A model generated the notes under the pieces. That model searched no databases. It was not told where the DNA came from and saw nothing but the letters and a program-made list of their open reading frames with translations. A program made the position numbers and the translations under genes. A DNA stretch of 52,091 nt, counting the filler, from Catajapyx aquilonaris (Eukaryota), in NCBI GenBank assembly GCA_000934665.2. It is 2 parts of 2 records of this genome, joined end to end, with 100 filler letters (N's around TTAATTAATTAA, not from the genome) between each part and the next. Parts side by side here need not be neighbours in the genome. Positions count along the whole stretch, not along the records: positions 1 to 26,005 come from KZ539321.1; 1 more part is not named here. One strand, given 5' to 3'. Shown here one piece after another: positions 6,175 to 9,200 of this stretch; the first letter of the stretch is position 1; each line of letters opens with the position of its first letter.

Positions 6175-6261
6175 CTACTTCGATAACTTGCTGATGACCC
6201 TTATCAAAGCGCCATTCTCGTCTTTAAGCCGTTGGTTGTCCACCTTCAGCTGTTCAAGTTG
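6175..6261 (-). CDS. PPP1R12A: MYPT1 canonical terminal leucine-zipper exon (LZ-A)
   Basis: ttccag|CAA CTT GAA..; [28 protein letters not shown], matching the conserved MYPT1 C-terminus. Confidence 0.95.
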
Positions 6262-9200
6262 CTGGAAGAGAGTAGAGCAGCATTCTAGGTAACTGTGGTT
6301 AATGAACCATGACCAGACAGATAGGGACAAACAACATTGTGTTGAGAAGCAGTTCATTTTGAAAACCTATTAAGTAGGAGCAAGGAAACTCCATCCCGCA
6401 AGTACGGGGAAAAAAGCACAAACACAGACAGTTTCTGTTATGTAACTAACAGAAATAATTAGTAGGAAGTGTTCCCTTTGTCTCATTTGACAAGATTGGC
6501 TGATAATAATCGAGCTTACTCAATCAAAATAAATGACTGCACATGGGTCGAGTAAATGGGCAGGAATCAAAATTTTTGAGACAATATTGAATATCGACTT
6601 CATAAAGCACCAAATATGACCGAAGGAACAAGAAATAAACAGACACAGACACACACACTCACATGCTTCAGCCTATCAATGCAATAAAATTTGTCCAGAA
6701 ATTTTGACTGAAAATGACATGTAAATTAATTTTAAAGCAATATCCAACCAAATGAGGATTGAATCAAATACCAATACAACAATGGGTGTAAATATTATTG
6801 TTACCTTCCACTTATGCTCACATTCTATAAGTACTTATGACTTCTTTACAACACACTATTTGCATGTAAAAAAAAAATTGTAATCAAAATAGTCATATTT
6901 AAATTGACATAGATGGCTGAAGTCACATGCATTCCAAACCAGTCAGCAATGCATGCAGATAAATAACACACAATCGCAAATCACTGTATGCAATTGGGGA
7001 TGAATGTTAGGTTAACTTTTTTTTGTCTTTAATAGTAGGATTTAGGAATATTGCTGGGTTTTAAAAATGGAATAAAAAATGGTGACAGAATATTGTTAGT
7101 CCCACCAGTTGCAAGCTCCACAAAATGCACACTTTTCCCCCAATTATGTACAAAAAATTACTTCCCATGCAATGATATCAAATCACAAAAGAAGCCAGCC
7201 ACACATTTTTTTTTGCAATGTCTTTCAATCACTAGTATGCTTTTTCTTCACTAATTTGTGGAACAAGTTTTTTTTCTCTTTCATTTTGTTTTACCTATTT
7301 TGCGGGGGTGTTGGTTGTGTTGGAAGAGGAAGAAGAAGAAGCGTTACTGTTGGTCAGTTTGGTGACCACCCGGGTCAAGGCCCGGTTCTCGGACCGCAAC
7401 TTTTCATTTTCCGCTTTCAGCTTTTGCAATTGCTGAAAAAAGTGGTGGTTTGGGGAGGGGGTAGGAAAATTGAGAGTGGCGAATCATGTAGAAAAAATAA
7501 ATTGCACGACAAGTAATATGTGTTGCAAGTACCACAATTTGTATGTTAAAGATATCTTCAGTGCAATATTCCCCATAGCACTCTTTTTTGAAGTCAGATT
7601 TCCTACACCAAAAGTCACATTGATAGCATCTTTATATCACACAGGGTCGCTTAAAAATAACTCCCGATATATTACTTCTAGAAAGTAAATTTGCAACTTG
7701 TGTGCTGGAAATATTCTAGGAGATCCCTGCCATACATTATTAATAACAAAATTTCTGTTAACAGATGTTTTATGGTAGTGTGCAAGGTGTTGTAAAAATA
7801 TGTCAGATTACTCTGACTAAACTTTGCTCCACGCTTCTACTTATAGGTGCCATTGCATAATGCCAAACTAATAGTAGACACCTTGAGATTGCAAGTGGGA
7901 CTAGAATAACCATAGTATGCTAAACAATCTGTATGAGGATCGCAACACTTGGTAACATGGGAAGAACATGGTTGTAGAAAAAAATATATATAGTGAAAAT
8001 AACTTTCACAGCTTAGGATCTGGACAGAGAAGTTGCTAAGTTAGCAGATGTGAAGGCTTGCAGTTGCTGGCTGGGAGGAAAACAAAACAGGGCACATACA
8101 CGTCACACACATACCCTTTTCATCATTTCACACAAAGACTTTTTTCAAAACCCTCAGGGCCTACCCAGCAGTCAAAGCAGTAGCTGAGTTAAGCAGAGTT
8201 AAGTGCAGTGGCAAAAATAAATTTAAAAATGTAGCATTGCATCTAAACCAAAAAGAAAGAACCCGACAAAGTTAACCTTCAGGCTGCCCTCCAAAATTCT
8301 ATTTTTCCCCCTCCTTTCCCCACGTGGGAAATATTAAGAAACAGCACACGTCTGAGGTGTTATGCAGGGAATTGTACTTACTTTGGGGAAATGCCAAGAG
8401 AAACCCTTTTGCTTCTAAATCTTGCCCACTGGTGCAGAAAAACAATGCTATTTTTACCCCTTCATCGTGACGAAGCAACAAAGAGTGACATGTGGGTATC
8501 GCTATTTCCTTTTCTTTTGGTTTCCCCCTTCTAGTGTACATATCTACATGCATGGTGAAAAAACTCGGGTGTATCACACGTAGAAGGAATGTAAAAGCAG
8601 CTTTGAAAGAGCAGGCAGCAGAGCAAAATAAATCAGAATAGGAGGAGGAATCAGGATTCAAGAAAGGAGAATTGACTAAACTGTACCGACAAGTTGCAAA
8701 TTGATTCACATGATCTCTTTTTTTTAAAAGGGAACTAAAGCCTTCTGAATGAGCCCGTAATGCAACTTCATCTCAAATGGCAAACAGTTCAGATTAATAA
8801 AACGTTATGTGCGTTAAGATACTCCACTACTTTTTAACCTGTTGCCAAAAGTTAGGAGCAAACCATTTTAAAAAAGAATTAAAGTGGAAGTCTGCAACAT
8901 GTATACTACAGCATTTAGTTTAATCAAAGTTTGTGTCTAATGTTACTCATTTTTGTGTCTTCCTCTCAGTGTGTACATGTGAGATGTGCCATTAAAACAA
9001 AGAAAATTTTGTCAAAAATACTCACCTTAAGCTCCTCTTCCATTTCTGAAAGCTTCCTCTCCAAAGCTCTTCTTTCTCGCTTTTCAGATTCAGACATAGA
9101 GCTTCGGGTAGCATTCTGCAAAATTAATTGACATCATTTCTGATGGTCTGAACCCAAAACTCTTCTCTAATGTCTTGCAATGCTCCCTATATTTAATCCA

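What the first reader, a model, noticed from the sequence alone, without database searches (positions are those of the whole stretch)
6175..8066. Three alternative C-terminal exons of MYPT1: zipper-negative, zipper B, zipper A
After ..MEEELK there are three phase-0 acceptors whose exons begin CAA CTG CAA, CAA TTG CAA and CAA CTT GAA. They encode [44 protein letters not shown] and [28 protein letters not shown]. Known: in vertebrates the LZ+/LZ- switch (31-nt exon) controls PKG responsiveness. Inference: an independently evolved three-way switch built by exon duplication, with a second zipper that may select other partners. The LZ- exon is the least certain.
Basis: partly seen in the sequence, partly recalled or inferred. 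Interest (0 to 1): 0.7.

Follow-up and report, generated by a model that had tools for sequence, protein, structure and literature searches.

The report
Zipper-swapping cassette exon in arthropod MYPT
The tail of this arthropod myosin-phosphatase targeting gene can end in either of two related leucine zippers, chosen by including or skipping a small exon that carries its own stop codon; the pair is very old and widely annotated but apparently unstudied, and the proposed third, zipper-less exon has no support.

Summary
The sequence features are real. On the minus strand the exon ending ..SEMEEELK (9115-9026) is followed by AG acceptors at 8066, 7432 and 6261, with the stated translations.

Two of the three are genuine exons, but they are not three alternative terminal exons. 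Spliced contigs of public run X1 join 9026 to 7432 and 7295 to 6261. Exon B (7432-7295, 138 nt) is therefore an internal cassette. Its last codon is TAG, directly in front of its GT donor.
- Including B gives a protein ending in zipper B and turns exon A into 3'UTR.
- Skipping B would join ..EEELK in frame to the canonical zipper A. No such joint was seen in X1.

The pair did not evolve independently.
- Both tails are annotated within single arthropod species.
- U-B-A order recurs in 18 metagenome loci, and four intronless contigs carry B-stop-A.
- Predicted PPP1R12A isoforms of sharks, frogs, turtles, birds and mammals carry a B-type tail.

The 8066 exon has no splice joint and no conservation. 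Its acceptor is of ordinary quality.

This is an ordinary member of an annotated but unstudied isoform pair.

The parts
9026..9115 (-). Constitutive exon U, 90 nt, phase 0 at both ends. It reads [30 protein letters not shown] and has donor AAG|gtgagt.
   Evidence: Sequence. Joints 9115|9510 and 9026|7432 in run X1 at depth 185.5. tblastn to Cimex, Homarus, Daphnia and Artemia proteins. Conserved by blastn in 9 metagenome loci.
7295..7432 (-). Exon B, a 138-nt cassette. Codons 7432-7298 give zipper B plus a Ser/Thr/Asn-rich tail (45 aa). The stop TAG at 7297-7295 is the last codon of the exon and is followed at once by gtaaaa (donor GT at 7294-7293).
   Evidence: Joints 9026|7432 (side 90) and 7295|6261 (side 30), both CT..AC on the + strand, which is GT..AG on the minus strand. 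PF15898, 34.2 bits. 120 of 120 listed hits carry the B motif. The same TAG|GT arrangement occurs in L002-L009, L020, L021 and L032.
4820..6261 (-). Last exon. Codons 6261-6178 give zipper A (28 aa), with stop TAG at 6177-6175, then the 3'UTR. When B is included the whole exon is untranslated.
   Evidence: Contig 1 of X1 covers 6261..4820 and carries 30 nt of the end of exon B. PF15898, 51.8 bits. The 14-codon core shows 9-16 of 42 nt differences and 0 amino-acid changes against each of 13 loci.
4751..4756 (-). AATAAA, the likely polyadenylation signal of the gene.
   Evidence: Motif scan. X1 depth falls to 0 below 4568.
7028..7033 (-). ATTAAA about 260 nt below exon B, followed by an A-rich run. 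It is a possible minor poly(A) site that would make B a terminal exon.
   Evidence: Motif scan. A low-depth contig (6.6) runs from 7324 through the donor to 6997. This could equally be unspliced pre-mRNA, because the rest of the intron has similar low cover.
8013..8066 (-). It is unsupported and is most likely plain intron.
   Evidence: No joint in X1. No blastn conservation in 32 loci. No QL-starting candidate in the U-B introns of 11 loci. It is one of 5 equally good acceptor-like sites in this intron.
9510..9617 (-). Coiled-coil exon, 108 nt ([36 protein letters not shown]).
   Evidence: Joints 9617|9818 and 9115|9510. tblastn to Cimex P0164.
9818..9976 (-). Exon of 159 nt ending ..ENGEIDYKK.
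   Evidence: Contig 6 of X1, with joints 9617|9818 and 9976|11868. ORF listing.

Best explanation
This is the 3' end of an arthropod MYPT/Mbs (PPP1R12) gene on the minus strand. After the constitutive exon ending ..SEMEEELK lie two paralogous leucine-zipper exons.

The upstream one, B (7432-7295), is a 138-nt cassette exon. Its final codon is TAG, and that TAG also forms the AG| of its 5' splice site (TAG|gtaaaa).
- B included: the mRNA reads U-B-A, translation stops at the end of B, the protein ends in zipper B plus a short Ser/Thr/Asn-rich tail, and exon A is 3'UTR.
- B skipped: U joins A in phase 0 and the protein ends in the canonical zipper A. A is the type known in vertebrates as the PKG-interacting LZ.

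Both zippers keep the same core: Leu at four d positions and Asn at two a positions. They differ at fixed positions: b Gly/Arg, e Ile/Thr, a Ile/Val.

The switch therefore most likely exchanges the partner-binding surface of an intact coiled coil rather than deleting it. The pair predates the arthropod-vertebrate split.

Shown: the exons, the U-B and B-A joints, the stop at the splice site, the conservation of both peptides and of the gene order.
Inferred: skipping of B in this animal, and the functional difference between the zippers.
For: Splicing in this animal:
- Contig 6 of run X1 is exactly 9976-9818 + 9617-9510 + 9115-9026 + 7432-7295 (495 nt, depth 185.5).
- Contig 1 carries the last 30 nt of B joined to 6261..4820 (depth 240).
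- All five joints on the gene's strand are bounded by GT..AG.

Sequence: B is 46 codons including a terminal TAG, followed by gtaaaa. U ends and A begins in phase 0.

Both exons fit the same end of Pfam PF15898, profile positions 74-100/101.

A is under protein-level constraint although it is untranslated in the only assembled form. Its 14-codon core shows 0 amino-acid changes against 9-16 of 42 nucleotide differences in 13 of 13 loci. B shows 1-3 changes against 6-18 of 42 in 15 loci.

Both tails are annotated within one species: Daphnia pulex, Cimex lectularius and Artemia franciscana. Of the 120 proteins listed for exon U, 58 end in A, 37 end in B, 22 run on into intron and 3 are other.

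Of the 32 metagenome loci examined (L001-L032, out of 55 returned), 28 carry the B motif. In 18 of these an A exon lies downstream, never upstream.
- In 12 the stop is followed at once by GT (11 TAG, 1 TGA).
- In four intronless contigs (L001, L017, L018, L019) the A frame starts at the base after B's stop.
- In two more (L010, L014) A follows within about 16-70 nt.

Antiquity: 120 of 120 listed vertebrate hits carry ..ENRALTRV.. after ..EEELK. Mean identity is 0.73 within A, 0.71 within B and 0.50 between A and B. The tree split has 98/95 support.
Against: - No 9026|6261 joint (B skipped) was seen. X1 is the only run found, it holds contigs rather than reads, and contigs drop minor variants, so A-isoform use in this animal rests on conservation and on other species.
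- X1's kind is not on record ('?'). I read it as RNA because exon contigs have depth 185-240, intron contigs have depth 2-7, and the skips are GT..AG. It may also come from the same animal as the assembly.
- The vertebrate and most arthropod isoforms are computational predictions, and I saw no RNA for them.
- I defined the A and B classes by three residues inside the same 28 columns used for the tree, so the split is partly by construction.
- In several loci (L011, L012, L022-L027, L023) B's stop is not followed by GT, so the stop-at-the-donor form is not universal.
- No binding or dimerisation test could be run.
Confidence: 0.85

Rival explanations
1. One reading: three alternative last exons, including a lineage-specific zipper-less exon at 8066 (or 8070) that gives an LZ-minus protein.
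For: - A good polypyrimidine tract and CAG acceptor.
- The exon starts CAACTGCAA (QLQ), like exon B. Only 3 of 58 acceptor-like sites on this strand start with QL, and they are the three sites of the finding.
Against: - No joint into 8066 or 8070 among the contigs of X1.
- No conserved block there in 32 loci, although U, B and A are all found.
- None of 70 acceptor-like candidates in the U-B introns of 11 loci starts with QL.
- 0 of 120 proteins listed for exon U has such a tail.
- The likeness to B stops after 12 nt (47 of 500 shuffles as good).
- In some relatives the U-B interval is only about 110-600 nt.
Confidence: 0.08
2. Exon B is also used, in part of the transcripts, as a true terminal exon that ends at its own poly(A) site about 290 nt downstream. 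This would be alternative polyadenylation in addition to cassette splicing.
For: ATTAAA at 7033-7028. A contig runs from inside B through the donor and stops at 6997 (depth 6.6). In several other loci B's stop is not followed by GT.
Against: The read-through contig has about 1/36 of the depth figure of the spliced one. Other parts of the same intron have similar low cover (1.9-5.8), as expected of pre-mRNA. An A-rich genomic run just after the signal could cause internal priming.
Confidence: 0.2
3. B inclusion is a non-productive 'poison exon' that only lowers the amount of A-type protein, and the B peptide has no role of its own.
For: B carries a stop codon and leaves a downstream exon junction.
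Against: - The B peptide is conserved at protein level across arthropods and vertebrates. Synonymous codon changes far outnumber replacements (for example 18 against 3 with L021).
- It keeps the heptad Leu and Asn core.
- The stop lies at the very last codon of the exon. By the textbook 50-55-nt rule (general knowledge, not tested here) it would therefore not mark the mRNA for decay.
- It is the only path assembled in X1.
Confidence: 0.04
4. The vertebrate B-type tail and the arthropod B exon arose by separate duplications and converged.
For: Only 28 alignable residues are available. Coiled coils are low in information. The stretch before the zipper differs (NLQQIKQIQSL.. in vertebrates against QLQKLK.. 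in arthropods).
Against: ENRALTRV.xKL is shared, including the three class-specific residues. The six vertebrate B rows sit inside the B side and the two vertebrate A rows inside the A side of a 98/95 split. One primate model (P0313) places B before A, as in arthropods.
Confidence: 0.07

Closest known systems
Vertebrate MYPT1 (PPP1R12A) LZ+/LZ- switch by cassette exon E24
   Same: Same gene family and same place in the gene: a cassette exon just before the last, zipper-coding exon (passages of PMC5087845). Inclusion removes zipper A from the protein and skipping retains it. Described in passages of PMC9367544, PMC5087845 and PMC13755552.
   Different: E24 is 31 nt (or 13 nt). It acts by shifting the frame, and it yields a short tail without a zipper (V[X]GKSQYLLGG, legend in PMC5087845). 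Exon B is 138 nt, in frame, brings its own stop at its last codon, and replaces zipper A with a second, paralogous zipper.
Annotated A-type and B-type Mbs/PPP1R12 isoforms of other arthropods
   Same: Same two tails after ..SEMEEELK. The window's B core is 93% identical to Homarus B and its A core 93% identical to Cimex A. Examples: Cimex lectularius X7 (P0162, B) and X2 (P0164, A), Daphnia pulex X2/X8/X9/X12 (B) and X7/X10/X13/X15/X17 (A), Artemia franciscana X7-11 (B) and X3 (A). Decapods and Lepidoptera also carry B.
   Different: Those are database predictions without description. The window adds direct joints showing the cassette form, and a longer Ser/Asn-rich tail. Three gene models fuse B and A wrongly (P0009, P0156, P0163).
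Predicted B-type isoforms of vertebrate PPP1R12A
   Same: Directly after ..SEMEEELK they carry ..[18 protein letters not shown].., with the same heptad Leu/Asn core and the same class-specific Arg, Thr and Val as the arthropod B exon. Examples: Gallus gallus X3 (P0228), and models of turtles, alligator, sharks, coelacanth, lungfish, gar, frogs, axolotl, cetaceans, pig and Mus pahari.
   Different: They have an extra 8-10 residues before the zipper and a Cys-containing tail (..SGSCRQLRSVDL). In the mammalian rows the last heptad Leu is Arg (19 of 120 listed). One model (P0313) reads B and A in tandem, which suggests that the vertebrate exon has no terminal stop. I could not see vertebrate genomic DNA or RNA.
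Mutually exclusive tandem-duplicated exons
   Same: Tandem paralogous exons that encode alternative versions of the same protein segment.
   Different: The mRNA seen here holds both exons. Exclusivity is reached at translation by B's stop codon, not at splicing.

Membership tests
MYPT / Mbs (PPP1R12) myosin phosphatase targeting subunits | C-terminal PRKG1_interact domain (Pfam PF15898) ending in a leucine zipper | tested here: met
   The A exon scores 51.8 bits and the B exon 34.2 bits (cut-off 32.4), both on profile positions 74-100/101. Exons 9617-9510 and 9115-9026 align to the preceding coiled coil of Cimex, Homarus, Daphnia and Artemia proteins.
MYPT / Mbs (PPP1R12) myosin phosphatase targeting subunits | Central basic motif with the inhibitory phospho-threonine (..KRRSTGV..) | tested here: met
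   ORF 20435..20935 reads ..[17 protein letters not shown].. and aligns to four arthropod PPP1R12 proteins. Its role as a Rho-kinase site is general knowledge and was not tested.
MYPT / Mbs (PPP1R12) myosin phosphatase targeting subunits | N-terminal PP1-binding motif and ankyrin repeats | not testable with these tools
   tblastn with four full-length relatives finds nothing upstream of about 20.9 kb in the window. The 5' half of the gene seems to lie outside the window, and no genome is held.
Vertebrate E24-type LZ+/LZ- switch | Cassette exon immediately before the zipper exon | tested here: met
   Joints 9026|7432 and 7295|6261.
Vertebrate E24-type LZ+/LZ- switch | Exon length not a multiple of three, so that inclusion shifts the frame of the last exon | tested here: not met
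   B is 138 nt, in frame, and ends with its own TAG.
Vertebrate E24-type LZ+/LZ- switch | The inclusion product lacks a leucine zipper | tested here: not met
   B keeps Leu at positions 5, 12, 19 and 26 and Asn at 9 and 16, and it matches PF15898.
B-type Mbs/PPP1R12 tail (annotated isoforms) | ..EEELK followed by Q[LFI]QK[LY][21 protein letters not shown] | tested here: met
   120 of 120 listed hits to the B exon carry the motif, as do 47 of 48 representatives at E <= 0.001.
Mutually exclusive exon pair | Exactly one of the two exons is present in each mRNA | tested here: not met
   The contigs of X1 link B to A. Intronless contigs L001 and L017-L019 hold both.

The most novel reading that the evidence does not exclude
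Zipper B is not an arthropod curiosity. It would be a bilaterian-old second docking module of myosin phosphatase that has been overlooked: an intact coiled coil whose surface (b Arg, e Thr) selects partners other than those of the PKG-binding zipper A. The animal-wide choice at this position would then be 'which zipper', with the vertebrate 31-nt LZ-minus exon as a later addition at the same site. The vertebrate B-type isoforms predicted in sharks through mammals would be a third, unstudied MYPT1 C-terminus.
Probability: 0.3. Interest if true: 0.65.

Novelty: new member of a known kind. Interest (0 to 1): 0.4.

Why it matters
The C-terminal zipper of MYPT1 is the handle by which cGMP-dependent kinase and other partners reach myosin phosphatase. 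Its presence or absence is the textbook explanation for tissue differences in nitric-oxide sensitivity.

This window, together with the database rows it led to, shows a second zipper exon at that same position. The exon is old, conserved and under protein-level constraint. It is chosen by a compact device in which a stop codon is built into the 5' splice site.

None of my nine literature searches found a paper that describes it. However, the most relevant comparative study (Dippold and Fisher 2014) is not held, so I cannot say that it is not in print.

For annotation, the lesson is practical. U-B-A transcripts must be read as ending at B's stop. Gene models that fuse B and A (P0009, P0156, P0163, perhaps P0313) are probably wrong.

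Tried and rejected
- **RNA runs.** No RNA holder was listed. One run came back (X1, kind '?', contigs only). It proved to be spliced when laid.
- **Cover at 8066.** The bin 7976-8259, which holds the 8066 exon, has no cover in X1, while neighbouring intron bins have depth 0.5-3.
- **Depth as an isoform ratio.** The depth figures of contigs 1 and 6 (240 against 185.5) cannot be read as an isoform ratio.
- **Own genome.** None is held.
- **Short queries.** A 30-aa query of exon U was too short for the protein search. I re-sent a 41-aa stretch of the same frame that includes a few intron-coded residues. The A exon (28 aa) and the 8066 peptide (17 aa) were too short to search on their own.
- **Solved structures.** The searches with B and A gave only non-significant likeness to the Par-4 coiled coil (E 0.81 and 0.64) and, for B, to a short coiled-coil protein (E 0.14).
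- **Dimer prediction.** Complex prediction, intended for a homodimer of a B-type C-terminus built on alignment A2, was never run.
- **Papers.** PMC4121627 and PMC4349328 are not held.
- **E24 as the 3' end of a vertebrate B exon.** I considered this and read the 31 nt printed in PMC5087845 in the other two frames by hand. The likeness to the B tail is weak and needs a gap that would break the 31-nt length. I dropped the idea, and no vertebrate genomic DNA was available to settle it.
- **Earlier notes of the scan.** Nothing on this gene.
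Full report
**The observation**

On the minus strand the window holds the 3' part of a MYPT/Mbs (PPP1R12) gene. The exon 9115..9026 reads [30 protein letters not shown] and ends in a consensus donor (AAG|gtgagt).

tblastn with four full-length arthropod relatives places the central ..KRRSTGV.. exon near 20.5 kb. It places the coiled-coil exon at 9617-9510 and the three terminal pieces where expected. No ankyrin exons lie inside the window. No whole genome is held for this window. Earlier notes of the scan call the genome an arthropod, and my nearest named hits are arthropods.

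**What the RNA shows**

One public run holds the stretch: X1, kind not on record, kept as contigs. When laid on 4000-12500 it shows five skips on the gene's strand, each bounded by GT..AG:
- 9976|11868
- 9617|9818
- 9115|9510
- 9026|7432
- 7295|6261

One contig of 495 nt is exactly 9976-9818 + 9617-9510 + 9115-9026 + 7432-7295. Another starts with the last 30 nt of exon B and continues from 6261 to 4820. Exon contigs have depth figures of 185-240 and intron contigs 2-7, so I read X1 as RNA.

Exon B is therefore not a terminal exon. It is a 138-nt cassette whose last codon, TAG (7297-7295), sits directly in front of its donor (TAG|gtaaaa), and it is spliced on to exon A.
- With B included, translation ends at the exon's last codon and exon A becomes 3'UTR.
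- With B skipped, U (phase 0) would join A (phase 0) and give the canonical tail.

That second joint was not seen. The data are contigs of one run, and contigs drop minor forms. The gene probably ends at AATAAA 4756, and cover stops between 4568 and 4851.

**Are both zippers real coding sequence?**

Both match the same end of Pfam PF15898 (profile 74-100/101): A 51.8 bits, B 34.2 bits, cut-off 32.4.

Against 13 metagenome loci the 14-codon core of A differs at 9-16 of 42 nucleotides without a single amino-acid change. The B core differs at 6-18 of 42 with 1-3 changes in 15 loci. A is thus kept as protein although it is untranslated in the assembled form, which argues that B-skipped mRNAs exist.

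Both zippers keep Leu at positions 5, 12, 19 and 26 and Asn at 9 and 16 of the 28-residue core. The classes differ consistently at position 17 (Gly in A, Arg in B), 20 (Ile/Thr) and 23 (Ile/Val). In heptad terms these are b, e and a positions. This is my own assignment from the Leu spacing.

**Conservation in arthropods**

- *Search with exon B.* 632 proteins had E <= 10 among 745 candidates. All 120 listed carry the B motif right after ..SEMEEELK. They include decapods, Daphnia and Lepidoptera.
- *Search with exon U.* 124 proteins had E <= 10 among 1003 candidates, and 120 were listed. 58 end in an A zipper, 2 of them being models that fuse B and A. 37 end in B, 22 run on into intron-like sequence and 3 are other. 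None has a tail like the 8066 peptide.
- *Both tails together.* Both are annotated within Daphnia pulex, Cimex lectularius and Artemia franciscana. Both types also occur among Macrosteles entries and among sandflies.
- *Exhaustive representative search with B.* 48 proteins had E <= 0.001, and 47 carry the motif.

**Gene architecture elsewhere**

I examined L001-L032. The other 23 loci are weaker matches without the motif.

- 28 of the 32 carry the B motif.
- In 18 of these an A exon is also present, always downstream of B.
- U, B and A lie in that order in five of them: L009, L011, L012, L020 and L021.
- In 12 loci B's stop is followed at once by GT. It is TAG in 11 (L002-L008, which are one taxon, plus L009, L020, L021 and L032) and TGA in L028. 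The donor is always GTAA or GTAC without G at +5 in the TAG cases.
- Four intronless contigs (L001, L017, L018, L019) have U and B in one frame, and the A frame begins at the base after B's stop.
- L010 and L014 have U and B contiguous, with A about 16-70 nt further on. These are most simply spliced transcripts of the U-B-A form from other animals.
- In L011, L012, L022-L027 and L023 the stop is not followed by GT, so the exact device varies.

**Antiquity**

A search with the tail of a turtle isoform that had turned up listed 120 proteins (1653 with E <= 10 among 1979 candidates). All carry ..[14 protein letters not shown].. after ..SEMEEELK. They are PPP1R12A models of turtles, alligator, birds including Gallus X3, sharks, coelacanth, lungfish, gar, frogs, axolotl and several mammals. 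One primate model has B followed by A.

The three rows looked up (Gallus P0228, Mus pahari P0256, pig P0333) carry only predicted or unreviewed records.

Over 23 A and 27 B cores the mean identity is 0.73 within A, 0.71 within B and 0.50 between them. The window's B is closer to vertebrate B (0.61) than the window's A is (0.49). A maximum-likelihood tree splits A from B with 98/95 support, with vertebrate rows on both sides.

Three caveats apply. There are only 28 columns. I defined the classes from residues in those same columns. I saw no vertebrate DNA or RNA.

**The 8066 exon**

Nothing supports it.
- There is no joint into 8066 or 8070.
- All 29 blastn rows between the window's 10100-4500 stretch and 32 loci fall on exons U, B, A and 9976-9818.
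- None of 70 acceptor-like candidates in the U-B introns of 11 loci begins with QL.
- Equally good acceptor-like sites occur 58 times on this strand, 5 of them in this intron.
- The only point in its favour is the shared start CAGCAA[CT]TGCAA. It does not extend further, and 47 of 500 shuffles score as well.

I give it about 8%.

**Comparison with what is known**

In vertebrates a cassette exon just before the last, zipper-coding exon (E24; 31 nt, or 13 nt in man) shifts the frame and gives a zipper-less tail. I saw this in passages of PMC9367544, PMC5087845 and PMC13755552.

The arthropod device resembles it in place and logic. It fails two of E24's defining features: there is no frame shift, and the product keeps a zipper. 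It is also not a mutually exclusive exon pair, because one mRNA holds both exons.

Passages of PMC9929477 and of preprint 10.1101/2025.04.06.647460 show that the C-terminal region of MYPT1, which holds the coiled coil and the zipper, also binds SPECC1L. A swap of zipper surface could therefore matter beyond PKG. That is inference.

Nine literature searches found no description of a second zipper exon. The key comparative paper (Dippold and Fisher 2014) and a review by the same authors are not held. Supplements of the papers read were not opened.

**Verdict**

- It is a two-way choice, not a three-way one.
- It is a stop-carrying cassette, not a set of alternative last exons.
- It is an ancient pair that is widely annotated, not an independent invention.

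The instance in this window is an ordinary member of that pair. What may be worth a specialist's attention is that the pair, including its vertebrate counterpart, seems never to have been studied.

Noticed in passing
window 11868-12372 (minus strand) and about 20180-20240: The Ser-rich exon 11868-12372 looks optional. The joint 9976|11868 has depth figure 50.9, while the contig that holds exon 9976-9818 has 185.5. A 255-nt loose end at 9978, reverse-complemented and translated by hand, reads ..QEENNAGEE. That matches ORF 20035..20289 (..[16 protein letters not shown]). So most transcripts seem to join an exon near 20.2 kb straight to 9976.
   Followed up: partly
window 535-2633 (plus strand): The convergent neighbour gene is a small Rab-like GTPase in at least three exons (..VVLLGEGAVGKTSLVLRY....WDTAGQERFHALGPIYYRDS....GNKIDL.., ending ..GCCG). 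Its 3' end faces the 3' end of the MYPT gene.
   Followed up: no
window 26204-26540 and 26829-27165: A large inverted repeat with 337-nt arms, 97% complementary and 288 nt apart. It lies upstream of the MYPT exons found here and looks like a foldback or MITE-like insertion.
   Followed up: no
window about 9720-9735 and 26006-26105; 25075-25190: Runs of N (assembly gaps) lie inside the locus, and a long (AAT/ATT)n microsatellite is also present.
   Followed up: no
proteins P0256, P0313, P0320-P0335 (mammalian PPP1R12A models): In mammalian B-type tails the last heptad Leu is Arg (..VVAKRSGF..). This holds for 19 of the 120 listed vertebrate rows. The other 101 keep Leu. The B zipper may be decaying in mammals.
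   Followed up: partly
PDB 5fiy (Par-4 coiled coil) against window 7298-7432 and 6178-6261: Both zippers show a weak, non-significant likeness (E 0.81 and 0.64) to the Par-4 leucine zipper (..ENEQLKQENKTLLKVVGQLT).
   Followed up: no
L010, L014, L011, L012, L022-L028: In these relatives B's stop codon is not at the splice donor (TAA or TGA, no GT after it). In L010 and L014 about 16-70 nt lie between the stop and the A sequence in the spliced contig. The position of the stop inside the cassette therefore differs between lineages.
   Followed up: partly
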